Source: a virus (Duplodnaviria > Caudoviricetes). From it: a DNA stretch of 64,000 nt. Under the pieces are notes generated by a model. The model was not told the origin of the DNA and searched no databases. It saw only the letters and a list, made by a program, of their open reading frames with translations. The DNA lies in IMG/VR virus record IMGVR_UViG_3300033061_001635, positions 96,001 to 160,000 of that record; one strand, 5' to 3'. The position numbers and the translations under genes were made by a program. How positions within the stretch are numbered: the first letter of the stretch is position 1; every line of letters starts with the position of its first letter. Shown piece by piece: positions 1 to 21,100 of this stretch.

Positions 1-3000
1 TGGAGCAGATGATGCTGGGGTGACTGCTGAAGAATTCTGTGAAAACGGCCCGACTCCAACATTATTTTGCGCCGCAACCCTAAAACGATATGTGTTTAAA
101 GAAGACAGTCCTAAAATTGAACAATGAGTAGAATTACTTAGGGCCCTATTTAAAGTATAATTACCCACAGGCAATCTTGTCCATGTTGAACCAGAATCTA
201 AAGAAAATTCTAATATATAAGTTAGTATTGAGGCTCCACCATTACTTTGAGGAGCTGTCCAAACTAAAGAGACCTCTCCATTACCAATACCATTACCTTG
301 TGTAACTGCTAGATTTTGAGGAGCAGTGGGGGTTGTATAATTAGCTGTTGGGATTTGTGAAACTATTTTACCATTACGATCTAAAGTTAAAAATGCATTT
401 GCTATGTATTTGCCAGTATTATTTATACTTGGGGCGGGTCTTAAATATATATTTTCAGATACTATTTCAGATGCGTAAGCAATACCATTTACGGTTAAAT
501 CCGAATATAAATAACCATAGCCCGTTACTGTTATATTACCAACTTCATATGTTCCTGTTGCTAATGAGCCTAAAATATACGGGGTATCAGTATTAATAGT
601 AGTCTTAGATTTTGTATCATGAGACCATCCTGATGCAGTTGACTTGGCCCTGTCTAAGAATGTAGTAAAAGATATTCCACCATAAGCATTGCCATTCAAT
701 GCATTATTAATTTTTGGATATAAATATAGTCCTGGTTCACCAGTATTAGCATAAGCCCTTATTCCCTGATCAAAAGTAGTTATAACTTTATTATTGATTA
801 TAGAAGAAGTTGATGATGATAATACATTTCCAGCAATGTCTATTTGCTCAAGGTTTATATATTGTAGCTTTTTAGCTCTTATTCCACTTGATTCTATTAT
901 ACCAAGACTAACTAGTGCTGGCACATCAGAGTTAGCTGATCCAACCATAATATTGTTTGAATACAACCAACCACCAACTGTTAAGCTTGCTGGAACGTCA
1001 CTTTGTTGTTGAAAAATTACATTTTTCCCAGATGGTACAGTAAATAGATTTGATGTATTGACTCCTACCCTTGATCCACTAGCTTGTACAAATAAAGCGG
1101 GATTATCATTTAATCCATATATTTCAAAATTTGTATCTTTTTTTGATGTATTAAATACTGTACTTAGGTTGGGCCTAATGCTCAAAATGTGTGATGTTGA
1201 GTCAGAAGTTTCATTGTCTGCATATCTAAAAAGACTTAAATATCCACCTTTAGTAATAGACTTTACAGTAATATCATTGGTATCACTAAAAGGCATAGCC
1301 GTATCTAATAGCATTTCTGTAATTTGATTGCCGCCATTTAATGTAATACCGTCTACATTTCTATAATAATTAGCGCCTGATAAACTAATTACTATTTGAT
1401 CATCAATAGAAAATTCATTCGAACTAATTGGATTTGCTAATATGACTTGTCTCAAACACACCGTAGCTGATGTTGGAGAATATGTATTCCATGTTATATC
1501 TTTTTGTGTTAAGAAATAATCACCTATATTATAAATGCCAGTTACTGCACCATTAGATGTTGTACTAAGTATTTTATTCGATGGAATAGGTAAATTTAGT
1601 GATCCATTTCTATTAACTGTTATCTGACTATTAACAATTTTGCCACTAGATATTGTTAACAATCCACTTTGAGATAAACTACTAACATAAATGTTTGGGG
1701 AAGTTATATTTTGAGAATTAATTGTGTTTAAATATGAAACACCAGTTATTGTTACTATTTGAGATGATATGGTGGTTGACGATGATCCTACTGCTATCTG
1801 ATTTGATTCGTTGGTTAGCGTTATATCTCCATTATTATTAATGCTAATTTGATTGTTTGGGTATCCTAAAGTAGTATTTTCAACACTAGTATTGAGTGTT
1901 TTTACTCCTGTGCTTCCTGATACGACTATTAAATCAATTGCGCCTCTTTCAGATCCATGAGATGAATTTACTGCTCTAGCTTCTATTTTTCCATAATTTG
2001 TTTGAATGCCAGAAGAATTAGATCCGGCTAATTGTAGTCTTGATATTGTAGTATTAACAGGAATATTAGTTGATGGCTTATAATATAAAGTAATATTTGT
2101 GGGATAAGTTGAGGCTCTATTTTCTAGTCTAATACCCTCTTGACAACTTTGACATAGATTATTAACTATATGTAATAATGTTGATGGTCTTACTCCTGAT
2201 GGCATATTAATGCCTAATTTACCATCATAGGAGAAAAATAAATTCCTATTATCTGTACCGCTACCATAAACTATAAAATCATTGGATGCATTATTCTTAT
2301 TGAATAGAAAATTATTCGTTCCTGATGTTGCAAGAACAGAGTTGGCGTCATTGAGATTATCGGCGCCTAATAATAGAGCTTGTCCACTAGCATTGGAGTA
2401 CCAATATGCTTGTGATGATCCGAAGGTTGTATTATCATATTTGTATTGTAAAGAATAATTAGCACCAACAGGATTAGATAACATTGATACTGAATCATTT
2501 TCAGATAATGACTGTATATTAGCAGACTCTGATATTTTGTTTAGTACTACCCAATCCTCGCCAGTAGAAACCAGTCTGATATAATTATTGCTACCCACAA
2601 GAACAGTTAATACTCTATCGTTATAATCTCTAATAGTTAAAGCATTAGATGATTGTATTACTTTAAATTCTAGAAAAATATCTTTTTTAGACGGACTCGG
2701 CAATGTTAAAGAAACATCTCCATTAGAAGTATCTACTAAATATATAGCACTTATATTATCTAATATTGAGCTATGATCTAATATAATAACATTATTTAAT
2801 AGTGTATCAAAATAACTTTGATTAGCAAAAACATAAAATTCATTACCAGAATCTGGAAAGAAAACTGATTTATTATCATTAGAAGATGATGAAATCGAAT
2901 TTCTTTTAACGGAGATATTACCAGCGCCATCAAATACTATTTCTCCAACACCAGTTTCAAAATATTGATAAGATATATTTCTTGCTATATAAGGTATATA

Positions 3001-3129
3001 AAAACCAACATGAGTAGAATTTAATGAATTATAATTTTTCAGTTTTGATAAAATTTTAAAATGATCATTTTCTATAGTAAATGAAAATCCAACATTATCA
3101 AATACTTTTATTATTTTATTATTTATCAT
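1..3129 (-). CDS. Large tail/tail-tip structural protein with fibronectin type III domain (3' end truncated by window edge; missing from ORF track)
   Basis: ATG at 3129 (MINNKIIKVFDNVGF...), 31 bp after the TMP stop. The frame is open in the segments translated by hand, and both ends are in the same frame. Positions ~10-330 encode an FN3 pattern (PTAPQNLAVT...VSLVWTAPQSNGGASILTYILEFS...YRFRVAAQNNVGVGPFS). Confidence 0.85.
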   Translation of the reverse strand, partial: MINNKIIKVFDNVGFSFTIENDHFKILSKLKNYNSLNSTHVGFYIPYIARNISYQYFETGVGEIVFDGAGNISVKRNSISSSSNDNKSVFFPDSGNEFYVFANQSYFDTLLNNVIILDHSSILDNISAIYLVDTSNGDVSLTLPSPSKKDIFLEFKVIQSSNALTIRDYNDRVLTVLVGSNNYIRLVSTGEDWVVLNKISESANIQSLSENDSVSMLSNPVGANYSLQYKYDNTTFGSSQAYWYSNASGQALLLGADNLNDANSVLATSGTNNFLFNKNNASNDFIVYGSGTDNRNLFFSYDGKLGINMPSGVRPSTLLHIVNNLCQSCQEGIRLENRASTYPTNITLYYKPSTNIPVNTTISRLQLAGSNSSGIQTNYGKIEARAVNSSHGSERGAIDLIVVSGSTGVKTLNTSVENTTLGYPNNQISINNNGDITLTNESNQIAVGSSSTTISSQIVTITGVSYLNTINSQNITSPNIYVSSLSQSGLLTISSGKIVNSQITVNRNGSLNLPIPSNKILSTTSNGAVTGIYNIGDYFLTQKDITWNTYSPTSATVCLRQVILANPISSNEFSIDDQIVISLSGANYYRNVDGITLNGGNQITEMLLDTAMPFSDTNDITVKSITKGGYLSLFRYADNETSDSTSHILSIRPNLSTVFNTSKKDTNFEIYGLNDNPALFVQASGSRVGVNTSNLFTVPSGKNVIFQQQSDVPASLTVGGWLYSNNIMVGSANSDVPALVSLGIIESSGIRAKKLQYINLEQIDIAGNVLSSSTSSIINNKVITTFDQGIRAYANTGEPGLYLYPKINNALNGNAYGGISFTTFLDRAKSTASGWSHDTKSKTTINTDTPYILGSLATGTYEVGNITVTGYGYLYSDLTVNGIAYASEIVSENIYLRPAPSINNTGKYIANAFLTLDRNGKIVSQIPTANYTTPTAPQNLAVTQGNGIGNGEVSLVWTAPQSNGGASILTYILEFSLDSGSTWTRLPVGNYTLNRALSNSTHCSILGLSSLNTYRFRVAAQNNVGVGPFSQNSSAVTPASSAP

Positions 3130-3160
3130 TTAATGATACCTTATGAATATACAAATGTTG

Positions 3161-6100
3161 TTATGCTGTTCGTCCTATAATACTTTGTTTAGCGGCACTA
3201 TTCATGCCTCCCTCAAACACAGTTTTGTCGTATTGCATATGAGAATCTTGGGAGATATTTTTTGCGTTAATAGAAGTCTGGTCATATATTTTCTGTTCCA
3301 TATTGCCCTTTATGCTGTCTAAACCAATGTGGTGAAGTGATGTCGTTTGCGTAACATTAGCAGATAGTGATGTTGGTATAGCATTCGCGTGTTCTCCAAA
3401 TTGAGCCGTGGCAGTTTGGAACGTGTCGATAGATGATGATAAACTTTTTTGTGCAGAATTAAACTGTTCCGTAAAATTGGCCCCAATTTGCTCTGTGTAT
3501 TCATTGAACTGACCAATAGCATTTGTAACAGCATCCTGTATGGACGATGCTATATTAGCCGTATCTATACTAACATTATTAGATACACCACCAGAGGAAG
3601 ATGCTGTTTGTTTGAGGGTTTGTCCCGCATTAGAAATAGGCGCCAATTGCGCCAGCTGTGAGGTTCCACCAGCAGCAAGATATTTCGGACCGGCTATGCC
3701 TCCATTGGCCAAATAATTAACAATTCCACCTCTATTAAAGTGACCACTATTAATAGCATTAAGGATAGGCATATGCTTTTGGCTAGATTCTCTATTGACT
3801 ACAAATTCTCCCGGAGTCAACATGGCTGGAACATTATCCGTTCCAGATGCTCCAATAAGAGCACCATTATTAGCATAAATTAAGCCACCAGAACTATGAT
3901 CTTTGGCTTTTTCGTCATGCTGTTCTAGTCCTGTTTTATATGCATGGGTAGCTACGTGATTTCCAAGATCTGGAACATATAATGGAGAATGGGTTTGTCC
4001 TATTCTTGAATAATCTCTGAGAGAGTAAGACTTTCTAGGTCCCAAAACCATAGGATCATGTACAACGCGCGTTGTTCCTGGCATATCAGCAAATCTTGAT
4101 TCTACTTGACTATTCTTCATTTTTGTAATTGGTGAGCTCTTCTTAAGGGCGTTTTCTACTTGTTTTTTTGCGATTTCTCTCTGAGCAGCATATGCCATTT
4201 GTTCATCAGGGGTCATTTGAGCAATTTCTTTTGCTGGTTTAAAAGTTTGTTCGCTAAATTTTGTTACAACATCAGCTCCGGTGACCATATCAGCAGGGGC
4301 GCTTCTACCTGGATGAAGAACTGGGGCAGCTGACTGATTAGGCAATAATTCATTACTTAATTGAGATGTTAATGAGTCATCGAATAGGCTCTTAGAATTA
4401 TCTATCAAAGACTTATCTACCTTACTTTTTACTACATAAGCTTCGCCTCCGGTGGCCACATACGAATCTCTCGCATAAATAACCGGAACTTGTGGTGCGT
4501 CATGATGAAATGATCCTACGCTTCCGTGTCCAGCTCCTCCTCTATTGATATCCGAGGCATTTTCTGCCATTCTGGCTATAGCAGCATCTCTCATAGCTGA
4601 CTGTGGAATTGGTTCACTAGCGCCAAGATTACCGGTATTTCTAAATTTATTGTTAGGATCAAGATGCCAATCTCCACTTGTTCCGGAATGAATGTCGGTT
4701 GTTTCTGATCCCATATGTGCAAATGCAGCATCTCTTGGAGACATTCCGTGAGGAACAGCCGTTTCAGAGGCTATTCTAGCTGCTGCTATCGCAGCATCGC
4801 CTGAAGTTATCTGTATAGCTCTTCCAGTTTGAGCCATAGTCTCTGAACCAATTCCTTTTCCAATCCCCTCAACAGCTGATCCTGCGAGTCTTCTTACTCC
4901 TTGTGCAGCCTGATCTACATGAGTAAGTCCTACTTCAGTTGCGGCGCCAATCGGATCGGCAACTTTTCCAAGATTAGAAAAACCAGCACCTATTCTAGCT
5001 CCTCCTAGTGCTCCTACACCAGCAACCATAGCGGCCTGATTGGCAAGTGCGCCTGTGCCAACTTCTGCTGGTCCTTCTCTGAATTTTGTTCCATCAGCAT
5101 ATGTTAATGTTGTTGTTGGTTCTAACTCAGATTCTGGTAATACAACATGAGCCAAACCTTGTCCCATAAATATGGCTGCTCTCTCTGGTAAATTCAATAA
5201 AGTTCTACCCTGATTATCATAATATTCTTTGGATTGATCAAAATAATTACCAACCATACTTTCTGTTCTAGCTTCTGATACCGGCTTTTCTCCCGCCCTT
5301 TCCCCATAATTTCTTTGATAATGTAGACCAGCAGTAACGTCAGCGCCACTGGCCCCTCCCATAAACTGAGCAGTTCCTGATGCCAATCTATCTGCCTCTA
5401 ATTGTTCACCCATAAACCTTTCGGTCATTTGTCCTAGCACACCAGCAGAATCATACGATGACAATGCATCATTTGATCTTTGTTCTTTGTCTGATTTGCC
5501 TCCTTTAGCTAGATAATTTACCGGTCCTCCTTTACTATATCCAAATGGTCTAGTCAAATATGCTTGTCTATCATCCATTTGTCCAAATGGTCTTGTTAGA
5601 TATAATTCTTTTTGACGTTGATAAATCTGGCGTTCTTCTTTTTGACTTTGGTAAATCTGGCGTTCTTCATCTGTAATTATTCCATCTTTATTTAGATCTT
5701 CATCTTTGTCAATATTAGTTCCTGCTTTGCCACCATCGGCTAAATAATTTATCTTACCTCCTTTACTTTTATTGATAGAATGTAATAATCCCAAATTCTC
5801 CTTTGTTGACTTTGCATTAACAACAAACTCACCAGGGGTCAGCATCGCAGGAACAGTATCGGTTCCTTTTGGTGAAAAATCAATTAATTGTCCATTTTCA
5901 GCATATATCAATCCTCCGCTAGCTCTTCTGGCTGGTTTTCTGACCTTGGCTTGGTCTTTAGATTGAGATCCAAATAATCTGCCAATAGAGTCAGCAGCAA
6001 GTCCTGCCAAAGCTCCTGTTGTGCCATATTTTTTAGCAAAATTAACTGCACTGCCCAACATAGATTTTGGAGTTTGGGTCTGGAATGGTTGATCATCTGC

Positions 6101-9100
6101 ATAGCCCATGGTGCGATTGTATTGCTTTAATGCTCTGTTATATGATGGATTGTCTGTTGGTTTTTGACGCAAAGACGCCGAAACAGCAGCCTCTTCTTCA
6201 ACAAAAGCCTTTTGCATTGATTCAACTATAGATGGCTCAATAGGCTTAGAGGTTCCTCTAGTAGCTTGGCGAGCCCTAATGTATTCATCAAATGACCTGG
6301 CTCTATCAGCAGCACCACTAACTAATGGAGCATACTCTTTTGGTAGATTTTTTACTACTCCAGGAGTTAATAATCCAGCATCTTCTAATGCTCCTATGGC
6401 ATCAGAGGCTGCATGAAATCCTTCATGATTTAATGCAAAAGCATCATCTGCTAATTTTATATTTATTTGTCCACCAATACCAACACCTTCATCTAGAACA
6501 TCTGGCATAAAGTTTCCTCTCGGTTTTAGTCCCGGAGTGACTTCCGCATTATTTTTAGACTTTTCTACAAACTCAACTATTCTTTTTGCTAAAAACTTTT
6601 CTCCTTGAGAAGTAAGTTTGTATTGTCCACTAGTTGTTCGTCCAGATGATTTAAGATCTAACATTTCTGGTTCCATGGCCTTGGCTGCCCTGGCATTTAA
6701 TGTAGCAGAGTCTCCTCCTCCAAAACCATATTCTGTGCCCCGCATGGGTTGAGCAGACATCGCAGTTTTCTTAACCGACTCAACCACAGATTTGCCCGCT
6801 TTTCTAGTTTGCTGGTCTATGCTCTCCCATAGCCTCGCTTCTTCTGCGTCATTGAGCTTTTCAGTTATATTGTATCTGGATTCATCTAAAGCTTGCTTCA
6901 TATCTCTGTCTATAGCTGATTCTGCTTTAGCTTGTTCTGTTGCTCTTTGTCTTTGTGATTTTTGTCCACCAAGAATACCTTGTCCTCTACCACTTAATTG
7001 TTCAGCAGTTCTTGCGCTATTTGCCATGGAAACTATTCCAGACGTTATTTGAATAAGATCAATAGCGTCTTGAGGAGTTGATTCTCTCTTCATAACTCGT
7101 CCAGCAATATCGGGAACTTTTCTAAGAGATGCTCCAGCGGTAACTACTCCAACAGGAGTAAGCATACTAGCGGCAGTAACTCCAATAGCTGTTACATCTC
7201 CTGGTTCGGATGTTCTTAAATAGTTTGTTCCGTCACTAAATAATACATTACCATTTTTATCAGCATATTGTATAGGTCCATGCTTCTGAATCATTTCCTG
7301 CAAATCTTGATCTTTTTGAATTCTGTCTAAAGTTTGAACAGAGAGTGCTCCGGTTCCTCCTTGAGAAAAAATTATAGGAGGAACACCACCACTATCTTTC
7401 CATAAAGGATTTGTTGTCTGAGAATCTAAAGGAGGTAATATTTCTGCATCTGTTAGTGGACCAGCCAACATAGGATCTACGCCAAGCGACACAGCATCTG
7501 CTTTAGTTAACTTAGTTTTTGTTTTAGTCTCTTTAGATGTCTCTCTAGAAGCTTCAAATCTGTCTCTGGCTGATAATCTAGCAACATTTTTGCCGTCCGC
7601 AGCAATTTCCGTACCAGATGTGTGTCTTTCAGATCCGTCAAGTTTAAATCCTGTTGCGTAGTCTAGTAGTCCTGACATAAAATCAGAAACCGCTGCATCT
7701 CTTTCTTTAGTTCTTTTTGTTCTATCTGAGCCAACCATTTCTGGCGGAAGTGTGGAGTCAAATAGTTCTGAACCAAATAGCTTAGGTTTATCGGCACCAT
7801 ATTTTTTAAATAAATCTCCAGCTTTTTTAGCTTCAAAATAATCTTCAGCATTTTTATAAGATTCGCCAGCCCAGCGTTCTCCGTCTGGCTTATTAACGCC
7901 TCTTCCAAGTCCTATCGGATTTGACCCAGCACTGGCCCTGCCAGTAGAACCAAACTCAACCTGAGCATGTCTTAATTGCTGTAGTCGTTTCTCTCTTTCT
8001 TTATCGCTTATACCCTCTTCTTGAGAATGTTGTCTATATACGTCTATAATTTTTTTGCCTTCGTCTATAGCAAATTGTACTTTTCTTGCTGACTCTTGTG
8101 CTGTTGCTGTTCTGGAGGAAGTTGCCTGCTGAGCAACAGCAGCCGTTTGGGCTTCTTGATTGGCTGTTGGCTGAGTTGTAGTTGGCGATAAGGGTTCTTG
8201 TGTATTAACAGGTTGTGATTTTGTTGTATTAACCGGTGAAGTTCCGGAAGATGTATTAAGTGGTTTGCCATCTTTGTCCAGACCCATAGTAAATAATTTC
8301 TGTTGCGCTATCTGACGAGCCATGGCAGCCGTATTGTTAGGATCATTAGCCAAAGTAACCCAGTCCTTTGTTGCAAATTTACTAAAATCTGCATCTCCTA
8401 TATCATCGCCTGTTGTTCCATCTGCTTTTGGATATTTTCCTGTTGTAGTAGAAATAGTTGGTTTAGTAACAGCAGCCATCTGTTGATTTGTCTGTGTTTT
8501 TGCTAATTGGCCTGATGAAGAATTAAGCATGCCACCAGAGGGGTTTGGTAATAATAATTCAGTATTAGGATTAATAGTATTTGGAACATTTTTATAAGGT
8601 GGAGGCAGAATCAAATCAGCAACATTTTGAGTTGATCTTGATCCTTCCATTTTAAACATCTTACCTCTTGGAGATGTCCCATCAGGATAATATAACATTC
8701 CTGATTTTAGTAGTGATTTTTCTTTTCTCTCTCTGATTTCTGGTCTGAATCTAGATAAGTAGGCTTGTTGTCTTTCGTATCTTATTTGTCCTTTAGCTCT
8801 GTCTAGCATTTCTTTTCTTGTGTTAATGCCGCTAGATTTAGTTGTCTTATGTAATGATCTTAGATTTTGATACTCTGTTTCTTCCTCTTCTGTTCTAGAT
8901 TTTGATCCTTTGAGCCATAAACTTTTTCTTCTACTATATTGTTTACCCATGCCCAATTTGAATTCCTTCATGTCTATTGCATCATCTTTGTTCAAATCAA
9001 AATCAGAAAAATATTTAGTAAATTCTTTTTTATCTAGTAAATTATTTTTGTTTTTATCAAACTGTGTAAAGTCAGATACTAATCCTACTTTGTCAAAATA

Positions 9101-12100
9101 TCCAGAATTAATAGACTGTAATAATGGTAAGTGTTTTTGTGTAGACTTAGAATTGATAACAAACTCTCCAGGACTCAACATAGCAGGAACAGTATCCGTG
9201 CCCTTAGGCTTGAAATCAATAAGTTTTCCATTACTAGCATATATTAATCCTCCAGATGATCTGGCTACAGGAGGAGCAGCAACAGCCACCCCAGGATTTA
9301 CTATGTTGTTACCAGCAGCATCCTTTCCTATGTTCGCATCCTTCATATTTCCTTCAACACTTGCTCTTAAATCATCAATACTAATACGTAAATTATCATT
9401 AGAATCTTTTAGTATAGATTGTGATTCCGCTAATTCGCCCTGTCCCTTTGTCGCGCTTGAACGTAAACCCACGGACTCTAAATATCTTTCAGCAGCCTTT
9501 TGCATACTAGGGTCTGTTTTACGATCTTGTAAAGCAGCCAATGACTGTTGAACTAATGGATTATTGGCCATTCCACTTTCTATAGCCATTTGTTTCGTTA
9601 ATTGTAGTTGTTGTTTTTGGAAATATTCGGCTACTGCTTGATCAACATCTACTCCCGGTTTTCCTTGATTCTGAGCATATTGATTTCTTATTTGTAGTTC
9701 TTGAGCAGCTTTTACTCCGGGATCTTGTGATAAGGCTAACGTTTCTTTTCTTTGATTAGCAAGAACAGTATTCCCAGCCCTAGTAGCTTCTCTTACATTC
9801 CCTGTTTTAAATAAAGCTTCATTAAATGCTTTTCTAGCATCTCTTTGATTATATGGACTATTTAATCCACCAGAAAGATTTCGTTGCAGTCTAATAAAGC
9901 TTTGATTAAGCTTATCTGCTTCTTCTGGAGTATTGGTCAATAATTGATTAACAAAATTTTGTCTATTATTTTGTAATTCTGAAGTATGTTGAAGATCACT
10001 GAATGCTTTATCTACTAATTCTGTACTATTAGCAAGCATATCTAATGCTTCTCTATTATTTTGCAATTGATCATCTAATTTATTAAGCTGTTCAACATTG
10101 TTACGCAAAGCGTCTTTATCTGTAAGAGTACCCTGTTGTTTTTGTAAAGTATCTCTTTGTTGAGAAAGTCTTATTTGTCTGTTCTGAATGCCTTGGACAG
10201 TTGTTTCTCCGCCAGCTAAATTACTAACATCTCCCATGATTCTATTGCTTTTCTCATTATATGTTTCACCATATCCGCTTAAGATTTCTCTTAAGTTCAT
10301 ATTACCTTCGTTAGAGATGTCTCTCGATTTTCTAAAATAGTTTTGAGCTTCTTTAGCTGCTTTGCTAGCTTCGTTCAGTCCTTTTGCAAATTTATCTAAT
10401 GCTCCTTCTTTAAAAGAAGACAAGTTTTTAACAGAATCTAATAATTTTTTACCAAAATCACCCAAAATATTCGTACCATCTTCTAATTCTTTTCTAAATT
10501 CTGATACTTGCATAGTATTATCAGCATTATTTTCTTTGGCTTTCTTAGCCATGTTTTCAATTTTAGCAGTTGATATCTGTTTCAATTCGTCTTTTTGCTG
10601 TCTAGATAAATTAGGATTATTTTCTATTTCATTTTTAGCAGTATCAACTGCTGCTTTTTTAAGTTCATCTACTCCTGAGCCAGCACTCTTGTCTAAAACA
10701 GTTGCTATACTTTGTGTAATATTTTTGGGTATATTTTGTTGTAATTGAGCACCACCAATTAATTGTTTTCTAATTCCAGCATCTAATCCCGCTGTGGCAG
10801 ACTCTAATGCTTTAGTAAATTCTTCTTCAGAGTATGCATTAGGATTATCTAGAATATTTTTTTCTCTTAATTTTGGACCAGAAACTTTAGACTCTCCACG
10901 TAATGATGATGCATATTGGGTCGTTGCCTCTACCCTAGCATCAGACTCAAATGATATTTTATTAACAGACTCATTTACTATGTCTGCTATTTTATCAAAA
11001 CTAGCAGCCAATCGTCGTCCAGCTTTATCTGCAAGATCCATAGCTCTTGCTAATTTTGCGCTTTCTTGAGAAGCTTTTGCTAATTCATCATTAGCTAAAA
11101 ATTCATCTTGTGCTGCTTTACCAACGATAGTTTCTTTACCTTGTTCCCCAGCAGACATATATAGAGCTAATTTTTTAGGATCAGATAAAATCATGCCTTT
11201 TAAAGATTCTCTAACTATATTTCCAGCTTCATTACTGGGATCCATGATTTGATCATTACTGAATCCTTTTGAATAAAGTCTTTCTAAATCTCCGTATCCA
11301 GTATTGGCTATTTTTTGGTAATTTTCTAATTCTTTTTGAGCATCAACGCTTGCCTCTTCCGTACCATAAGAGCCTTTTTTGGATTTTGCAACTGTTACTG
11401 GATCAAGGTCTTGGTAGTATGGATTCATGCCAACGCCAATTTCTCCAATGCCTAATAATATTCCTCTACCAAAATCTGTCCAATTACGATCATTTTCTGC
11501 TTTATTTTTTCCAGCTGTTGCTGTATCTGCTGTACTTTCTATAGCGGTATCTGTTAAGGCCTTAACCGACGATGCTGTTTTTGCTCTCAAATCAACATTA
11601 TTAACATCCTTACTTAATTTTTCCAAAGCATTTGATAGACTATCACTAGCAGCAGATAATTTGTCATTTAATAAAGATCTTGTCATTTCTTGGGCAGCTT
11701 TTTTCGCTGTTCCAGAAAAATCAAATGCAGCATCAGCACCAGCATACAATGCTGTGCCTATAGCAGCAGCGGCCCCTAGCATAGGATTGATAGCGGCTAA
11801 TTGTGCTGATGTTGTTAAGCCTACAGATAGTGTTGTTGCTGCTTTGTCTATTCTAGCCCCTGCATCTGCTGCTTTTATTTTTCCCTTATCTGTTTTAGTA
11901 TCAAATAATGCTGATGATATATTTTGGCCTTGCCCAGCAACCAACCCCGCGGCCAACCCAACGTCACCAAGTCCTCGCTGCATACTTCTTCCTAAATTAC
12001 CAGTAAAATATCTTTCTCTAAATGCTCTATTAATAGGACTATTTCTAGTATCCATTAATCCAGCAGCCCCAACGCCTCGCTCTCCTCTCATTTTAGCTAA

Positions 12101-15100
12101 GTCATTTATAGCTTCTCTTCGCTTACTCACCTCTTCTTGTGCTAATTTTTTAGCCTCTTCTGCTGAAGCTACACTAATGCCTCTAATAGTTCCAGCATTT
12201 TTATATTCTTCCATCCTCGTAGCTATTAACTGCTGATCCATTTGTCTGAGGGTTTTTCTATCTCTCATAGAATCAGAAATATATTTTTGAATATCATTAC
12301 CGCTAATATTTAGATTTTTTAATTCACTTGCTGTTATATTGCCTTTTATACCAGTAGAAGTTTGTGTTCCAGTAGCCACTGTTGTAGCTCTAGAAAAAGC
12401 TTGTGTCTTAATATCATTTAATTCAGAAGATATAGCCTGTGCAACCTGATCAGCTAAGTCTGATGCAGCTATTGGTTGTTTGGACGATGATACTATATCA
12501 GCTTCTATAGCCTTTTTTCTTTTATCTATTAATCGTTGCTCTTCTTTTTCTGCTAAAGATAATATTTTTTGTTGTGTAGCTCCTGATCCTAGTTTTTTAC
12601 CAACTGAACTTTCTTTAAATCCAGATTCTAAAAATTGACGCTTAGTAACATCAATAAGTCCCTTATTTCTGATATTAGATAATGCTTTTTCGGCTTCTAT
12701 AATCTTATCTATAGATGCTCCACTGATTTTTAGTCTTTCTAAATCTTTGTTCCCTGCATCCAATACAGCTTTTATAGATAGTTGTTTATTTTCATTCAAT
12801 AAACGATTTAAATATTTCATGCCGTCTCCGGCATCATAAAGAGTGTCCACAAATGCTTTTGTATCTTGCAAAATAGATGGATCTACTGCTATTGTACTAG
12901 TATCGATTGAGTTTGGACGATTGCTCGTAATATTCTGTGTTTTTCCTAAATAACTTGTTATATTTTGCAATCCAGAAAGAACACTATCTACGCCACCACC
13001 AAAAGCAAATTTTTGTACTCCTCCTACAATTCCTCCTTTATTATATCCTTGTATTTTGTCTGCTTTATTTAATTGATGTAATTTATTATATCCTATTTTT
13101 TTAGCAGCGTTCTTATTAACAACAAATTCACCAGGAGTTAATAGTGCTGGCACCGTATCTTCTGAAGATAGTCCCGTATTTCCTCCTGATGCAAATTTTC
13201 TGATACTTCCGCCACCATTCCGAGATAAAAATGATAGTTGCTGGGCTTTAATATGCTCAGCATATTTTGGATCATTCATATTTATAACATCTGGACTATT
13301 AATCAAATCCGCAGACTTGTTATAGCCACTTTGAAGAATCCATGCCGGATCACTAGGTGGTGGCCAAGTTTCTTTTCTTCCATATAGTTTAGGATCAAGA
13401 TAGCTATGATTTTTAGTCCATTGACTTGGATCAAGGGGAGTTTTCTTTACATCTGAGCGATTATTAAAATAGTATGACCAAACAGATTTTGCAGATTCAC
13501 TCACTTGATTTCTGTCTGATGTTAACATACTTCCAGCAGCAGTGGCAGCTTCCATTACTATGTCATATAATCTTGGACCATATCCTTGGGTTGCTTTTGA
13601 TAAACCAACAGTAAATAAATTGCCGGTTGCTTTTTTAGCGCTAACAAAACCTTGTCTATCGTTATTTTTAAAGTATGTCGCCGTTATTTCAGATCCATCA
13701 GATCGTAATCCTATTTTGCTATAATTTTTAGGTTTTTTCTCTTGTGATTTTTGTAAACCGGTTACGCCAGCAGCCCCTATAGATCTTTCTGGCATTCCTG
13801 CTGTTAAACCAGCACCCTGAAAAGTCCTAGCAATAGAATCAGCAGAACCATACATAGAACTTATCAAACTAGACATGTCAGTGTCTTCTAATCCTAATGC
13901 CATACCTCCATCAGCATATTTAGGTAAAGTTTTATAAAAATCTGGATTCAGTCCACTCTCCCCAAAAGCCTGAGATAAAAGCTCAATAGCTCCTTTATTG
14001 TTTTCTACAGCGGCCGACAATAAAACGGGAATTAGTTCATTTTTACCCAAATCCCATTGTGTCGCACCAAGAGTGCTAAAAAGGTTTTGAGATACATTAT
14101 TTTTTTTCGTTATTTTTTTAACAGAGTCATGGGCTTCTGCTATAAAATTTCCAGAATATGGACTCTTGCTTGTTGCTGTTGGGAAAAAATGCTCAAGTCT
14201 ATAATCTTTTGGTCCTGCCCACTCGGCATTCTTTGGATCTTTATACCATTTTTCAACAGCATCTTTACGCTTTAATAAGCTTTCATGCAGTTTATCTATA
14301 ATTTCAGGATGATTATCATATAAATGTCCTTGAATATCATGAAAAGACTCATGAGCAAGAACACCTTTATGAAGTCCTCCTGCTGTTTTTATAGTATCAT
14401 CATTGCCTTCAAATAGTATTCGCTGATCAACAAATTGTTTAAGTGCCTTATATTCATCTTCTGGTAATTTACTTTTATATTTTTCAAGATTATGTCTAAG
14501 AACCTTGGGCATTAATCCACCCTGATAAAATGCTCCTGTTTGTTCTTCTGGGGGAGCCTTTTCAGATTTTCCCAACAGTATTGACATCACACTGCTTTTA
14601 CTTTTTTCAGCAAGACTTCTTCCTGGTATAAAATCAATAGGTTCTGCTTGACCAGATGGCATTTTAAGATAGCCATCAGATGTTAACATTTCTTTTGGTA
14701 GAATACTTGCTAATATTGACTTGTATTCTTCTTCAACTTTACCACCTTTAGCAAAGGTATAATGTATCGCTTCGTGCCCCTGGCCCTTCAATCGCATTAT
14801 TGTTTCTAAATTATCGTCAATCATCTTTTGATAACCGGTAATCTTCTTATTTTGCGGACCGTTTGATCCTCTAATTTTAGATTCCGGAATGGGTAATCCT
14901 AGATTTTGTAAGGTCTGAGCTAAAATACCGGTTTGATTAGGATTTCTGGCTGATAAAATACTAACGTTGTCTATTAAAGATGGCTCTTGTTTTAATGCTT
15001 CTGATAAGTGTTGTCCTAGGGGTGTAAGCTTGCCTTTCTTTAACATCTCTTGAACCAAAGGCATATCGTCTTTTCTTGATAAATCTAGTTTACCATCAGG

Positions 15101-18100
15101 AAGTCTAATTTCTCCACCAGTAACCAGAGTATCATCAAAATCAAAAACCATTTCTTTAAATGGGCCGGTCGAGTTATTGTTTGGGAATATTTCTCCATAC
15201 TTTTTAAGTAGTCCGCCGCCTGATAATTTCTGAACCATCTTATCATTCTTTGGTTCTGGTATTCCATATTGTGCTCTAAAATATTTTTGAAATTCTTCAA
15301 CAGCCTTGCCTCTACTATTACTATCTATTGTTCTTTTAACTTCTGTTGGAATATTAGGATCAATACCAAATATTTTTGCCGCTTTAGGTCCGATGCCCAT
15401 TGGAAAGTCGATTGGACGAGTTCTTAAAGCATCGTCCAATATGGTAGCATCTGCTGATCCAAAAATTTGTTCTAGTAAAGCCCCTTCAATATTTCCTTGT
15501 CCTAATGTTTCTCTTTGTTTTTTAGTTAATTCTTTAGGAGTAATACCAAGAAGTTTTGATGCTCCTTGTACTATTTCTGCTGTTTGTCCACTAAGATAAT
15601 CAATAACATTTTGGAATTCTGTTGGTAATCCTCTTTGTACTATGGAGGCATTTATTGACCTGTCTTTGCCGGACGAATCGGTGCCAAGATTCCAAGTTTC
15701 TGGACCTAATAATCCAGTATATCCTAATGGATTTAATCCTACTAAACCTAATTGTGTCGATGACAAAACAGCATTTGTTGTATCTTTTAATGCTGTTGCT
15801 TTTTGAGTTCCTTGTGATTGTTTAAATTTATCTATTAAGTAATCTCTTGTTCTTGTATAGTAAGCTAATTTATCTGCTTTAGTTTCTGGTCTAAATGCAG
15901 AATTCCAATATTTTAATTTGCCACCTTCAGCAGTATCAGATACTGTTTTTCCTGAGAATGGGCCAAAACTTGAATCATTTGGTAATCTTTCAGATCCAAA
16001 TCTTTTTAATATCTCTGTTCCTTGAGCTGGTAATATTCCAGAAGATTTTTTAACAGCTGTTTCTGTAGCTACTTTTGCTAAAATAGCTTGTTGTATAGCG
16101 GAAGATGGACCAGTTGGAGATGATGATGAATCAGTATCAAATCTTAGTCCATATTTTGCAGGATCGCTGGTTGCTAACTGTCTAAGAAGGCGATATGGTT
16201 CAAATGATTTTTTAGTTTCTAGTTTTTTCTTTTTATCTTTTAAGGACCGATAAAGCTCTAGTTGAGCAGCATACTCTTTGTCTGTCTCTGCTTTTTTATT
16301 ATCTGCGCGAGTTATTCCTGTTGCGGCCAACTGCTGGTCTATACCGGATACTTCTTCTTTGTATGCTGCTTCTGCTTGTTCTATTAGTGTTGGCAATACG
16401 TTGGATCTGTTCTGTAGTTGAACCATATTGTTTTTTAATAATGAAAATACCGAGGGGGAAACAACTTGTTGAAGACCCTCTAGATTTCCATTTAATACTA
16501 AATCCCTAACTTGTGTTCCACTTATTCCGCCTGTTCTTTTTAGATTAGAGACTCCATATCCTGCTTTTTTATATTTCTCCATTTGCTTTTCTGTCTTGTC
16601 TGCAACAAAAGCCATGCTTCCTTCACCAGCTAATGTAATCTGTCTACGACCATCCTTTTCTCCCATATCAAAAGCTAAAGGAACACTCATATCTCCAAAT
16701 GCCTTTGGTAGAACAGAGGCCCCCTTAGATCCGAATCCTGCTTTGGCCAGTGCTAATCTAAAATCTTTATCAAATACTGCTGTTCTATAATTTTCAGAAT
16801 CTACAGCCTCATCGGATCCGACTAATGCTATAAAGTCTTCATAGGGTATGCCAGCAGCTTTGGCTGCTTCCATCATAGATTCGTGACCTACTGTTGTTGG
16901 AGCAAATCCTCCCCAAGTTAATCCTATTTTTTTCTTAGTTGCTTCTACTAGTTCATTTCCTGTTTTACGACGTAATCCACCGTCGTCTTTTCGTCCTAAT
17001 ACTACTGATTTAGAACCTATTCTATCTTCTAATAAAGCTTCTTCTTTTGCCGTGTCTAATGGAGCCCCTGTTGTGCTACCAGCTGTTCTACCAAATAATC
17101 CAACACCACTAACGTCCCTCATTGTTCTTTGTTTAAGAATTCTATCTTTTTCTTCTTTTGTAGTAGACGATAATGTATAAGCTCTATCTACTTCCTGTAA
17201 CATACCCTCTAACTTATCCTGAGAAACTGTGCTTGTAAGCAACATAACTTCTGAAGCTTTAGTTATATCTTCTGGGGTTAGGATAGGGAAGCGATTTGTT
17301 TGTCGTAGTGTTCCGTTATCGTTGGATCCTCTTCCGGTAACAATACTACTTTTACCAGCTCCGGCCACGCCATATAGTGCTTTTAGAGAGTTTAAACTTT
17401 TTTCTTTTCTGGCTTTGATGGCTAGATCAGTTAAATACTCCGTATAATTTCTTGGTCCATCAACACCGGCTTTTTTCATAGCCTGTTCAATAACTTGGGC
17501 ATTTGCTGGATCATTAATTACATCAAAATCAATATATCCTAAATTTCTTGTAACCTTACCACCATCTGTATATTGTTGTCTTTGAATTCCAGCACTACCT
17601 AATAATTCATTTAGAGTAGAGTCTAATATTCCCTCCATATTAGAATCTAGCATTGGTCGTTTTTGAATTAGAGTTGTTAAAAATTCTTCTTTACCATTAT
17701 CTTCTGCTTTATTTATAACATCTTGCTTAACTCCGCCCTTTAATAGTAAGTCAGTAATTTTAGGATTTATTGGTCGATATTCACGAGCATTTTTCTTTTT
17801 TTCAGCTTCAAAATATAATGCTGATCCTTCTTTAGAAACTTCAGGATTGTCCGATCTTCCCGTTCTTATCGTATCTCTTCTTAAATTGCTTAATACGCTA
17901 TTAAGCATGTTGTTTTTATAGCTACGACCATATACAACATCGGCGCTATTATATCCGCCATCTTTCTCTGTTAGAGCATCAAAAGCATCAGCCAATCCAT
18001 CATTATCACCAGAGAATAATTGACTTACTCTATTTCTATATTGATCAAAAGCGCCTGATGATTGTGTCCTTATTGAATTTAATAATTGATGTGTTAATTC

Positions 18101-21100
18101 ATGATATAATGTATTTTTTTCTTGATTTGGGAAATATCTGGTGCTACTTAAACCCACTGTTCCTCGTCCGGTAGTTTCGGTAATTTCTTTTTTAGCCGCC
18201 ATTGCTGCTTTTCTAGCATAAGCTTGTTTATCTTTCACTTTAGATATTTGCATAGTTAATGCAGATTTTTCATCATAAGCCTTTTTAAATGCAGCATCAT
18301 CAATTGAAAAAGATCCATCATCAAAAGTTTTTGTTGGCGTTTTCATTATCTTCTTAATTTCTTTTTCTTTTTCCTCCCATAATTTTTGATAGCCATATAG
18401 ATCTTGTTCATCGGCCGTGGTGAACCCATACTGAGATAAATCTAACTTATCAAAATCTCTAGCGCCATAAGGATTTGCATAAAAAGTACCACGAGAACTA
18501 ACGTTTTGTCCTACTCCACCAAAATCAATATTTTGTGGTAAAACTTTAGACAAATCCTGTTCTGGTAAACCTATATATTTAGCAAAATTTGCTAGATCGC
18601 CCACTAAATCATTTCGTCTAATTTTAGTCTTAAACAAACTTTCAAATTTTTTGCGATCAAAAGCTTGTGACTTAAAATGTTCAGCAACTGCATTCTGATC
18701 AACATTTATTCTTTCATCTTTTGGATATTGATCCCACGCTAATGATACTTGTTCATCATTTAACTTCTTTTCCATTTCTTTAACATAAGCGTTCGTAATG
18801 CGCTTGGGAAATTTGGTTTGTCCTGTACCGAATGGGGTTGATTCTGCTTTTCCTCCGGCCATGAATCTTTGAATTCTTCCTCCAAGATTTTTTTTATCAA
18901 ACTTTTTTGGATCTTGTTCAATTAATCTTTTATTCTGCTTACCCTCTGGTAATGACAGATACTCTGCCTTAGTTATAGTTTCTGCTCGCTTCGGTCCTGT
19001 ACCAGAATATGAAAAACCTAATCCTTTATCTATTAAGTTCTGTTTTAGATTATCGTCAACAAAAAGCGGTCTCCCACTACGTTCTTTATCTGTCTGTTGA
19101 CTATATCCTTTAGTAAAATTCTCTGTTACATTTTTACCTTTTGTATATTGTGTTTCAGTTAATTTTTTTGCTTCAAGAGCAAGATTTTTTTTCCATTTTT
19201 GGTTACTTCTCATTTCAAATGTATCAACTCCGACAAGTCTACTACTAGTATCATATGCCGAAGTTTTTGGTGTGAACTTTACTACTGGACTGTCTCCGTC
19301 GTAAACATGGTCAACAACCACATTTAATGGCTCTGGGGCTTTTCCTCCACCGCCAAATCTTTGTCTTTTATTTGATTTTCCTGCTCTTATACTTCCACCA
19401 CCCCCATACTTATTCATATTATGAAGATTATCTGATCCTATAGTTTCAACAGCTTTCTTTCTTATAACAAATTCTCCTGGCTCTAACATTGCTGGTACAG
19501 TATCTCCACTGCCAGTACCAGGAACAACACCACCTCGTGCAAATTTTCTTATAACTCCGCCATTAGCTTTACCATCTGGTCCTCTTTTAACTCCTGTGGT
19601 AAATCCTGTAGTAAATTCTGTTAATGCTTTAAATCCCTTAAATGCTGCAAGAACTGCTAATGCTGGAAGAATTCCTTTAACGGCGTCTGCTACTTTTATC
19701 AAACCGCTAGTTAAAGATAATGCACCTCTAACTAAACTCTGAAATCCTTTAGATTGACCTATCTCACGAAATAGTGAGAAAAATTCTTCACGAACTTTGC
19801 TTATTTGATTTGCTAAACTAAGTTGTGCTGTAGCAGCATCTTTAGCCAGAGATGCCTGTCCTTGTTGTGCAACCTTTAATGCCTGCTGGGTCACAGTGAA
19901 TTGTTGAATAAGAGGAATAACTTTGCCAATTTGACGAAATCCACCAAGTTCTTCAACTATTCTGGAAAAATCTAAACTTCTAGGATCTATCTTGCCTAGT
20001 CCTTTGCTTAATAATTCAACGGCTTTATATGCTCCAACAAATTTACCTTCTGTGTCTGTTAGATTAACACCAAACTCTTTTAGCGCATCTATTGTTGTTC
20101 CTCTTTGAACACGAGTAAATATTGTCCGCAATCCAGTAGCAATAGTTTCAGCACTTTCACGACTAGTTGCTCTAATACTAGTAAATACCGAAATGAATTC
20201 ATTTAAAGCGTCTTTTCCTTCGCTTACTCCTTTGCTCGCAGTAGCAAATACGCTACCTGTTCTTTGTACAGCCGTAATGATGTCGCTGGATTCTACTGCG
20301 AATCTTGCGGCAACAGCATTAACTGCTCCTAATGATGCCTCCAAATCATTAGCGCTAATACCAAACTGTCTCATTATAGCAATACTGCCTTCGACAGTCT
20401 CATTCATATTATCGAATGATGGAGCTAAGCTACTAAGAGCTAAAGCCTTTAGAGCTTTCTCAGTTTCTCTAGCACTCAAACCAGCCTGAGCTAATGTTGA
20501 TGCTACTTGAGTTAACTCTTTAGAACTAACACCAAATTCTACAGCTAAATTAGTAATTTGAGATTGCAGTTTGGATAATCCAGCAGCAGATTCACCAGTA
20601 ACTTGTTGTAGCTTTACAAGTTCTTTATCATAATCAATAAAAGCTTGTATACCATTATTTATACTATTGGTTACGCCATATATAACGCTTGTAACAGCAC
20701 TAAATGCAACGAATCTTCTAACTGCTAAACCAGCCTGTTTACCGAATTCCTGCATCTCTGTTGCGGCATTTTGCAATCCTCCAGATGTTGATGAGGATAC
20801 TTTATTTAATTTAGCAATTGCTGACGAAGTTTGATTAATTTGTTGAGGGACATTGTTAATTTTAACAGAATTTACGCTATTACCAAAAGCCTTTATTGCT
20901 GATGTGGCAGCATTGGCTGATTTGACAGTTGAGGCAAAATTAGCATTTAGAACTTTTAATGAAGACGATAATGCTGCAACATTTTTTGATGCTGCCGGAT
21001 CAAGTTTAAACTGTACGTTTGCATTAAGAGTGCCAAGATCTTTTTTAATCTGAGCAGCTATTTGCTTAACGTTTGTTGGACCTTTAAGATTCAACTGTGC

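What the first reader, a model, noticed from the sequence alone, without database searches (positions are those of the whole stretch)
3660..19570. Recurring [FYL]-x-x-GG motif marks TMP domain boundaries: candidate polyprotein cleavage code
Seen at the junctions: RKFARGG, QRFGGGG | SNase | QRFMAGG | peptidase | QQYTDGG | kinase-NTase-nuclease | QKLSGGG | HAD | YTFAKGG | peptidase | PKYADGG | GNAT | RKFASGG, GYNKGG, QKFAFGG; later NYLADGG, GYSKGG, NYLAKGG, HFNRGG, NYLANGG, KYLAAGG. The motif clusters at domain edges rather than inside domains. Established: lambda TMP gpH is proteolytically processed and, from memory, has similar FATGG/YATGG motifs in its C-terminal region; xxGG sites are cut by adenoviral and ubiquitin-like proteases. 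Inference: these are protease sites that release each enzyme as a separate protein.
Basis: partly seen in the sequence, partly recalled or inferred. Interest (0 to 1): 0.88.

Follow-up and report, generated by a model that had tools for sequence, protein, structure and literature searches.

The report
Conserved glycine joints in giant tape measure
A 5,986-residue phage tail "ruler" protein carries a row of enzyme-like cassettes separated by one short aromatic-x-x-Gly-Gly joint. The joint comes from the region where phage lambda cuts its own ruler, and related phages swap cassettes exactly there, but nothing yet shows that the protein is cut at these joints.

Summary
Window 3161-21121 (-) is one 5,986-aa tape measure protein (TMP). 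[FY]xxGG occurs 15 times against 2.8 expected.

Of the 23 [FYL]xxGG hits, 17 lie at cassette joints or on the flanks of five copies of a roughly 60-75-aa hairpin module. The other six match the chance background. The full joint is GG-x-[VI]-[QKR]-[KR]-[FY]-[AM]-x-GG-x-V.

Three independent tests put the joints at domain edges:
- Breakpoints among 15 related giant TMPs, including one exact in-frame excision at GG|.
- Breakpoints among 150 diverse giant TMPs.
- AlphaFold confidence dips at all six joints modelled.

DNA at the joints is not conserved, so selection acts on the protein. The module profile finds 25,575 protein clusters and aligns to lambda gpH 732-787 (FATGG, YATGG). That is the glycine-rich region where gpH is cut at a still unmapped site.

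The cleavage reading is plausible but unproven. I found no GG-specific protease in the genome. HExxH cassettes are missing from about two thirds of relatives. The motif has its aromatic residue at P5, not P4.

This scan reached the same conclusion earlier on at least seven other genomes. I class it as a new variant of a known kind.

The parts
3161..21121 (-). Single ORF, 5,986 aa: giant tail tape measure protein
   Evidence: TIGR01760 3.6e-28 and PF10145 5e-22 on aa 147-492; PHROG TMP families
19562..21121 (-). aa 1-520: TP901-type TMP core ending in a hydrophobic stretch
   Evidence: conserved as block A in all 15 relatives
19343..19561 (-). Hairpin module 1 (aa 521-593): GGVIRKFARGG, DTVPAMLEPGEFV, then YGGGG and FGGGG
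   Evidence: aligns to lambda gpH 732-787 and JBD30 gp46 1016-1085
18866..19342 (-). Cassette C1 (aa 594-752), SNase-like
   Evidence: PF00565 at 21.0 bits, equal to the gathering score, E 4.7e-4
18851..18865 (-). Joint J1, FMAGG (aa 753-757), within GGRIQRFMAGG
   Evidence: family breakpoints at aa 747-760; pLDDT below 50
17573..18850 (-). Cassette C2 (aa 758-1183): helical domain with invariant YHE(L/M)THQL, a putative zincin
   Evidence: A2 alignment; AF2 pLDDT 78.9, ordered over Q 761-1184; no fold match
17558..17572 (-). Joint J2, YTDGG (aa 1184-1188), within GIQRQQYTDGG
   Evidence: six family breakpoints cluster at aa 1186; pLDDT below 50 from Q 1185
15227..17557 (-). Cassette C3 (aa 1189-1965): multidomain, includes a HIGH-type nucleotidyltransferase signal
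   Evidence: PF01467 E 0.011 and PF16581 E 2.9e-4, both below threshold; blocks D+C always travel together
15212..15226 (-). Joint J3, LSGGG (aa 1966-1970), the Leu variant ([VI]QxL[SA]xGG in orthologues)
   Evidence: breakpoints at aa 1970-1975; pLDDT below 50
14756..15211 (-). Cassette C4 (aa 1971-2122): HAD-fold phosphatase-like, with DxDxT motif FDFDDT
   Evidence: AF2; Foldseek hits to HAD phosphatases including T4 Pnkp 3'-phosphatase, prob 1.00, TMt 0.53
14741..14755 (-). Joint J4, FAKGG (aa 2123-2127)
   Evidence: breakpoints at aa 2121-2126 in the family and in many diverse relatives; pLDDT below 50 at Q 2124-2126
13919..14740 (-). Cassette C5 (aa 2128-2401): folded domain with HESFH
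   Evidence: AF2 ordered over Q 2127-2402; no Pfam or PDB sequence match
13904..13918 (-). Joint J5, YADGG (aa 2402-2406), followed by a roughly 60-aa disordered linker
   Evidence: pLDDT below 50 from Q 2403 to 2466
13217..13903 (-). Cassette C6 (aa 2407-2635): alpha/beta domain; the GNAT label is unverified
   Evidence: AF2 ordered over Q 2467-2630; no Pfam or PDB match
12995..13216 (-). Hairpin module 2 (aa 2636-2709): FASGG, DTVPALLTPGEFV, then YNKGG and FAFGG
9254..12994 (-). aa 2710-3956: long helical TMP-like stretch (block B in relatives)
9077..9253 (-). Hairpin module 3 (aa 3957-4015): GGLIYASNG, DTVPAMLSPGEFV
5498..5917 (-). Hairpin module 4 with C-flank joints (aa 5069-5208): GGLIYAENG, DTVPAMLTPGEFV, LADGG, YSKGG, LAKGG
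3665..3889 (-). Hairpin module 5 (aa 5745-5819): GGLIYANNG, DNVPAMLTPGEFV, FNRGG, LANGG, LAAGG
3164..3664 (-). aa 5820-5986: C-terminal tail (block H), the presumed tail-tip anchor
   Evidence: shared with L004, L006 and L007; the anchor role is inferred by analogy to lambda, T5 and JBD30

Best explanation
The motif is the core of a 9-13-residue joint, GG-x-[VI]-[QKR]-[KR]-[FY]-[AM]-x-GG-x-V. This joint is the flanking repeat of a conserved glycine-rich hairpin module ([FY]AxGG ... DTVPAMLTPGEFVVN ... L..IN ... [FY]xxGG) found near the C-terminus of tens of thousands of tape measure proteins, including lambda gpH.

In this phage lineage the module has multiplied. Single copies of its flank serve as the standard disordered connector between cargo cassettes, which sit between module 1 and module 2. 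Cassettes are inserted, deleted and reordered in frame exactly at GG|.

Shown: the joint marks fold and cassette edges, is under protein-level selection, and is homologous in pattern to the lambda gpH maturation region.

Inferred: the joint is a recognition and processing signal inherited from TMP maturation. It would be cut at least at some positions, after tail assembly or after ejection, by a protease not yet identified (host, tail-associated, or in some members an embedded zincin). That would free the enzymes in the host.
For: - Enrichment and TMP specificity.
- In the family, 34.5% of homology-block ends lie within 10 aa of a motif, against 5% null.
- Cassette order is shuffled among relatives.
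- Exact excision: L004 reads FMVGG|KAKETR...[C2]...YAAGG|KVERKI, while L007 reads FMVGG|KVERKI.
- Across 150 diverse giant TMPs the motif is 5.6-fold enriched in every one, and breakpoints are 5-fold enriched within 5 aa of it.
- All six joints modelled by AF2 fall in pLDDT below 50 segments between confident domains.
- Joint DNA averages 45% identity with shared words of at most 12 nt and varied Gly codons, so the constraint is on the peptide.
- The solo-joint logo equals the module N-flank logo.
- The module aligns to lambda gpH 732-787.
- gpH is cut in its glycine-rich region at an unknown site. A cut after G737 would give a 12.2-kDa fragment, against the roughly 14 kDa reported.
- Precedents: the TP901-1 Tal glycine-rich junction before its catalytic domain is processed, and Gly>Arg blocks this (PMC11409707). 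T5 pb2 is cut just upstream of its enzyme domain (PMC10038345).
- Polyvalent proteins are predicted to be processed (PMC5512222).
Against: - There is no direct evidence of cutting.
- No JAB, C48, C39 or C5 protease is detectable in the genome.
- HExxH cassettes are absent from L015, L017, L019 and L021, and from 103 of 150 relatives.
- C2 has no peptidase fold match.
- Conservation spans about 13 residues and forms period-9 tandem arrays in the modules. That looks more like a structural or docking repeat than a minimal protease site.
- Some orthologous joints have lost a Gly (L014 YAAGR, L004 FANAG) without losing the cassette.
- P23-45 gp96 RNA polymerase is modelled as working while fused to the TMP.
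- The mapped T5 sites (R1127 or V1148, disputed) are not GG| sites, and the module profile does not detect T5 pb2.
Confidence: 0.42

Rival explanations
1. The joint is an uncut structural joint. It would be a flexible Gly-bracketed strand that lets a several-thousand-residue chain with folded or partly unfolded cargo thread through the tail tube. It might also dock on the tube lumen, the assembly chaperone or sister TMP chains to keep the 3-6 chains in register. The enzymes would then act while tethered to the ejected TMP.
For: - The conserved element is long (about 13 residues) and occurs as period-9 tandem units (GGIVNYLANGGIAGPKYLAAGG and GGVIRKFARGGVV).
- It flanks the hairpin in 25,575 protein clusters, most of which are unlikely to carry cargo arrays; only the best 150 hits were examined.
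- No protease was found.
- P23-45 gp96 is proposed to transcribe while fused.
- Only the lambda and T5 TMPs are known to be cut at all.
Against: - AF2 gives the joints no defined structure, and the flanks of one cassette do not pair.
- Lambda is cut somewhere in this very region.
- Enzymes with nuclease, phosphatase or nucleotidyltransferase folds would reach their targets more easily if free (inference).
Confidence: 0.35
2. The joint is only an evolutionary seam. Cassettes enter the insertion-tolerant glycine-rich region by recombination between repeated flank units, and the motif persists as a by-product with no biochemical role of its own.
For: - In-frame excision lies exactly between two joints (L004 versus L007).
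- Cassette reordering has breakpoints at joints.
- Joints share microhomologies of 11-12 nt.
- Occasional degenerate joints are tolerated.
Against: - Joint DNA is poorly conserved (45% mean identity, synonymous codons vary) while the peptide logo is sharp across 150 proteins drawn from separate 50%-identity clusters.
- A neutral scar would decay.
Confidence: 0.15
3. The motif is a chance or compositional artefact of a Gly-rich protein.
For: GG dipeptides as such are only mildly enriched (60 observed against 47 expected).
Against: - None of 2000 shuffles reached the observed motif counts.
- The pattern was replicated in 15 plus 150 other proteins.
- The positions match fold edges.
Confidence: 0.01

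Closest known systems
Phage lambda tape measure gpH and its maturation to gpH* plus gpHC
   Same: - Same order of parts: hydrophobic stretch, then glycine-rich region, then [FY]AxGG, a GEFV hairpin and [FY]AxGG (gpH 732-787).
- gpH is cut in this glycine-rich region (PMC12617516).
   Different: - Lambda has one module and no cargo. Here there are five modules plus five solo joints bracketing six cassettes.
- The lambda site and protease are unmapped, so the link to [FY]AxGG is only a consistency: 12.2 kDa predicted against about 14 kDa reported.
Polyvalent proteins of phages and conjugative elements (Iyer et al. 2017, PMC5512222)
   Same: - Many unrelated enzyme domains sit in one injected polypeptide.
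- Domain shuffling is extensive.
- Processing by embedded zincin-like peptidases is predicted.
   Different: - That paper does not mention tape measure proteins (0 occurrences of 'tape') or any conserved inter-domain motif.
- Here the carrier is the TMP and every junction carries one defined joint.
- An HExxH cassette is not universal.
Thermus phage P23-45 gp96, a 5,002-aa TMP fused to a virion RNA polymerase (PMC10770324)
   Same: A giant TMP that carries a working enzyme into the host.
   Different: - It carries one N-terminal enzyme, not a motif-delimited array.
- The enzyme is proposed to act while fused, and no processing is reported.
TP901-1/Tuc2009 tail-associated lysin Tal, glycine-rich processing site (PMC11409707)
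   Same: A glycine-rich junction between a structural part and a catalytic domain of a tail protein is proteolytically processed, and Gly>Arg blocks it.
   Different: - It is a different protein (Tal, not the TMP).
- It has a different motif (NGGGNSGGGD, no aromatic residue).
- It has a single site.
T5 tape measure pb2 maturation (PMC10038345; PMC11937520)
   Same: [quoted passage not shown]
   Different: - The site is disputed (R1127 or V1148 +/- 1), and neither is GG|.
- By eye, R|AEGG...GEHGTEVV resembles the module, but the hmmsearch and hhalign profiles do not support homology.
GG|X viral polyprotein and ubiquitin-like processing (adenain, DUB/ULP-type proteases)
   Same: Cleavage after a Gly-Gly pair releases mature proteins from a precursor (established knowledge).
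   Different: - Those sites have their key hydrophobic residue at P4. Here the aromatic is at P5 with Ala at P4.
- No such protease family is detectable in this genome.

Membership tests
Tail tape measure protein (TP901 type) | N-terminal TMP core domain (TIGR01760 / PF10145) | tested here: met
   TIGR01760 at 98.6 bits against a 28.8 cut-off; PF10145 at 79.2 bits against 33.2
Tail tape measure protein (TP901 type) | Position in a tail gene block of a tailed phage | tested here: inconclusive
   The record is a 175-kb, CheckV-complete IMG/VR virus. Neighbouring genes have no PHROG or Pfam assignment. There is a weak S78 prohead-protease hit upstream.
Lambda gpH-type glycine-rich maturation module | [FY]AxGG flank, then a P-A-x-L-x-GE[FY]V hairpin, then a helix ending in N, then a [FY]xxGG flank | tested here: met
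   Five copies. Alignment to gpH 732-787 and JBD30 gp46 1016-1085. The profile scores gpH at 16.4 bits. In cultured phages the module always lies under annotated TMP genes.
Lambda gpH-type glycine-rich maturation module | Proteolytic cut within the region during tail maturation | not testable with these tools
   Needs protein chemistry. Even the lambda site is unknown.
Polyvalent proteins (Iyer et al. 2017) | Several unrelated effector or enzyme domains in one phage polypeptide, with variable architectures among relatives | tested here: met
   SNase-like, HIGH-NTase-like and HAD-fold domains plus three unassigned folded cassettes. Architectures are shuffled among relatives.
Polyvalent proteins (Iyer et al. 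2017) | Embedded zincin-like metallopeptidase (MPTase) for processing | tested here: inconclusive
   Invariant YHE(L/M)THQL in C2, but no Pfam or fold match. HExxH is absent in many relatives.
GG|X polyprotein processing (adenain, ULP, DUB or C39 type) | A cognate protease family encoded by the virus | tested here: inconclusive
   PF14464, PF02902, PF03412 and PF00770 give no hit at E <= 1 in the 175-kb genome. Divergent or host enzymes cannot be excluded.
GG|X polyprotein processing (adenain, ULP, DUB or C39 type) | Hydrophobic residue at P4 of xxGG (LxGG or (M/I/L)xGG) | tested here: not met
   Logo of 1,729 motifs: aromatic at P5, Ala 42% at P4.
GG|X polyprotein processing (adenain, ULP, DUB or C39 type) | The same site is used in other virion proteins | tested here: not met
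   No other ORF of the genome carries the joint context.

The most novel reading that the evidence does not exclude
The [FY]AxGG nonapeptide is the general maturation site of tape measure proteins. It would be cut by one conserved (host or tail-borne) activity or autocatalytically, and the same event would produce lambda gpH* and gpHC. Giant multi-module TMPs would then be true polyproteins that use this site repeatedly to release a changeable set of free enzymes into the host ahead of the DNA.
Probability: 0.25. Interest if true: 0.85.

Novelty: new variant of a known kind. Interest (0 to 1): 0.6.

Why it matters
If the joints are cut, this is a defined and portable processing code for a large, undescribed class of phage-delivered enzyme trains. 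At least 150 clusters of 1,360-7,872-aa proteins carry 3-11 modules each. It would also point to the site of the 50-year-old, still unmapped lambda gpH cleavage.

If the joints are not cut, they are still a natural in-frame docking point where phages exchange tail-delivered cargo. That is useful for reading giant TMPs in metagenomes and for engineering cargo into laboratory phages.

Either way the claim can be tested directly in lambda by point mutations at FATGG and YATGG.

Tried and rejected
- Megablast of the flanking 25 kb against cultured phages found no match. Cultured relatives of the N-terminal core are distant: SPbeta YomI at about 25% identity, with only one FASGG and no cassette array.
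- Nodularia phage 2AV2 TMP (3,404 aa) has two hairpins but no cargo array.
- The ESM Atlas search for C2 gave only unnamed clusters, plus a weak LPD23 lead.
- Foldseek and VIA searches with the C2 model found nothing above the helical background.
- phmmer of C3, C5 and C6 against PDB sequences found nothing.
- The search for homologous proteins for C2 at near lengths found only two fragments of similar giants.
- Complex prediction of the module as three copies gave no verdict (score 0.02). This is not evidence either way.
- I tested the idea that T5 pb2's cut site lies in a homologous module. The resemblance is by eye only, and hmmsearch and hhalign do not support it.
- I tested the idea that long DNA repeats at the joints drive the pattern and rejected it.
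- I tested whether other proteins of the phage use the motif, and they do not.
- Literature searches for a prior description of motif-delimited cargo arrays in TMPs found none.

Full report
**What is there.** Window 3161-21121 on the minus strand is one open reading frame of 5,986 codons.
- Residues 147-492 match the TP901-type tape measure core: TIGR01760 at 3.6e-28 and PF10145 at 5e-22. Several PHROG tape-measure families match as well.
- The window lies in a 175-kb IMG/VR virus record rated complete.
- The neighbouring genes have no family assignment, so the phage is far from cultured ones. Megablast finds nothing, and the nearest cultured TMP core is SPbeta YomI at about 25% identity.

**The observation.**
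- [FY]xxGG occurs 15 times against 2.8 +/- 1.65 expected from shuffles. [FYL]xxGG occurs 23 times against 6.7. None of 2000 shuffles reached either count.
- The other ORFs of the genome carry the motif at 0.6 per 1000 aa, against 2.5 per 1000 aa in the TMP, and never in the extended context.
- The motif is part of a longer element, GG-x-[VI]-[QKR]-[KR]-[FY]-[AM]-x-GG-x-V.
- This element is the flank of a hairpin module of about 60-75 aa ([FY]AxGG ... G-T-D-T-V-P-A-M-L-T-P-G-E-F-V-V-N ... L..I-N ... [FY]xxGG). The module occurs five times, at about aa 521, 2636, 3957, 5069 and 5745.
- Of the 23 hits, 17 are module flanks or one of five solo joints (aa 753, 1184, 1966, 2123, 2402). Four lie inside folded domains and two are unresolved. 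The six non-joint hits equal the chance expectation.

**Are the joints at domain edges?** Three independent tests say yes.
1. Family breakpoints.
   - A scan of IMG/VR found 19 related loci, giving 15 distinct giant TMPs of 2,959 to over 7,275 aa.
   - Homology blocks between them start and stop at the joints. 34.5% of block ends lie within 10 aa of a motif, against 5% for random positions.
   - Splitting each protein at the motifs and clustering the pieces shows the same cassettes in different orders and combinations between module 1 and module 2.
   - One comparison is exact. L004 reads ...FMVGG|KAKETR-[C2 cassette]-YAAGG|KVERKI..., and L007 reads ...FMVGG|KVERKI....
2. Diverse relatives.
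   - A profile of the module found 25,575 clusters among 1.84 billion representative proteins at E <= 1e-3.
   - The best 150 are proteins of 1,360-7,872 aa with 3-11 module copies.
   - The motif is 5.6-fold enriched in all 150. Recurrent homology breakpoints are 5-fold enriched within 5 aa of it.
3. AlphaFold models.
   - I modelled Q 741-1200 (pLDDT 78.9) and Q 1955-2720 (pLDDT 69.6).
   - All six joints covered fall in segments with pLDDT below 50, between confidently folded domains.
   - FYQGG at aa 2198 lies inside a fold.

**Domain labels.**
- C1 reaches the SNase gathering score exactly.
- C4 has a HAD fold and a DxDxT motif.
- C3 shows weak HIGH-nucleotidyltransferase signals.
- C2 has an invariant YHE(L/M)THQL but no Pfam or fold match.
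- C5 and C6 fold confidently but are unassigned.

**What kind of constraint holds the joints.** The DNA of the joints is not conserved. Mean identity is 45%, Gly, Phe and Ala codons vary, and shared words between separate joints reach at most 12 nt. The peptide logo, however, is sharp across 150 proteins drawn from separate 50%-identity clusters, and it is the same for solo joints and for module N-flanks. Selection therefore acts on the peptide. A neutral recombination scar is unlikely, although recombination clearly uses these sites.

**Link to known biology.**
- The module aligns to lambda gpH 732-787 and to JBD30 gp46 1016-1085. In cultured phages it always lies under annotated TMP genes.
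- A 2025 structural study states that gpH is cut in the glycine-rich region near its C-terminus into gpH* and a roughly 14-kDa gpHC. It also states that the site and the protease are unknown, and that gpH residues from about 690 to 817 are unresolved (PMC12617516).
- A cut after G737 would give 12.2 kDa. That is compatible with the reported size but not diagnostic.
- TP901-1 Tal is processed at a glycine-rich junction ahead of its catalytic domain, and Gly>Arg blocks this (PMC11409707).
- T5 pb2 is cut just upstream of its enzyme domain, but the site is disputed (R1127 or V1148) and neither is GG|. Profile methods do not relate T5 to this module.
- Polyvalent proteins are predicted to be processed by embedded zincins (PMC5512222). 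That paper does not mention tape measures or any junction motif.
- P23-45 gp96 shows that a giant TMP can carry a working enzyme. Its authors model the enzyme as acting while fused (PMC10770324).

**Mechanism.**
- Shown: the joint is a conserved, disordered, peptide-level boundary element at which cassettes are exchanged, and it derives from the TMP glycine-rich maturation module.
- Inferred, and my preferred reading at about 0.4: it is a processing signal cut at some or all positions after tail assembly or after ejection.
- Against that reading:
  - I found no JAB, C48, C39 or adenain-type protease in the genome.
  - HExxH cassettes are absent from four complete family members and from 103 of 150 relatives.
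  - The conserved span is long and forms period-9 tandem units, which suits a structural or docking strand.
  - Two orthologous joints have lost a Gly.
  - The aromatic residue sits at P5, unlike adenain or PLpro sites.
- The main rival, at about 0.35, is an uncut hinge or docking joint.
- A pure evolutionary seam rates about 0.15.
- Chance is excluded.

**Novelty.**
- Four literature searches found no description of motif-delimited cargo arrays in tape measure proteins.
- This scan has already reported the same phenomenon on at least seven other genomes, with the same verdict. Those notes gave me the P23-45 and T5 leads, which I checked myself.
- I rate this a new variant of a known kind: polyvalent, cargo-bearing virion proteins, combined with lambda-type TMP maturation.
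- The specific 'cleavage code' remains a hypothesis that simple lambda genetics and mass spectrometry could settle.

Noticed in passing
window 3161-21121 (-), aa 1-593, 2636-4015, 4016-5131, 5132-5820: The protein reads like several TMP-like units in series. Each unit ends in a hairpin module, and hydrophobic Gly/Ala-rich stretches precede modules 1 and 3.
   Followed up: partly
window 8942-9076 (-), aa about 4016-4060: Directly after module 3 there is an EF-hand-like pair (DKNKNNLLDKKEF ... DLNKDDAIDMKEF). The Pfam EF-hand hits are weak, with E 0.003-0.06, below threshold.
   Followed up: no
window about 5520-5660 (-), aa about 5150-5200: A short internal duplication (ERQIYQ.QKE twice, and YLTRPFG twice) leads into the YSKGG and LAKGG joints.
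   Followed up: no
window 27285-28037 (-): A 250-aa ORF upstream has weak hits to the S78 prohead protease (E 0.014) and to Zincin_1 (E 0.068). It is the only protease-like signal found outside the TMP.
   Followed up: partly
window 1-3129 (-): The gene just downstream of the TMP (over 1,043 aa, running off the window) ends in a fibronectin type III domain (PF00041, 7e-8). It is probably a tail tip or fibre protein.
   Followed up: no
L014 aa about 2340-2350; L004 aa about 590-600: Two orthologous joints have lost a glycine (YAAGR in L014, FANAG in L004) while the flanking cassettes remain.
   Followed up: partly
L011 aa 2411-2430: The C2 cassette's terminal joint is fused directly to a hairpin (GIQRQKYATGG|TVPALV...). 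A solo joint and a module N-flank are therefore interchangeable.
   Followed up: partly
L025 (Nodularia phage vB_NpeS-2AV2) 8983-19197: This cultured cyanosiphovirus has a 3,404-aa TMP with two hairpin copies at aa 1005-1040 and 1078-1112, but only two [FY]xxGG motifs and no cargo array.
   Followed up: partly
G000:C1:1-60 (outside the window): The virus record starts with a GGACCACCACCC-type simple repeat.
   Followed up: no
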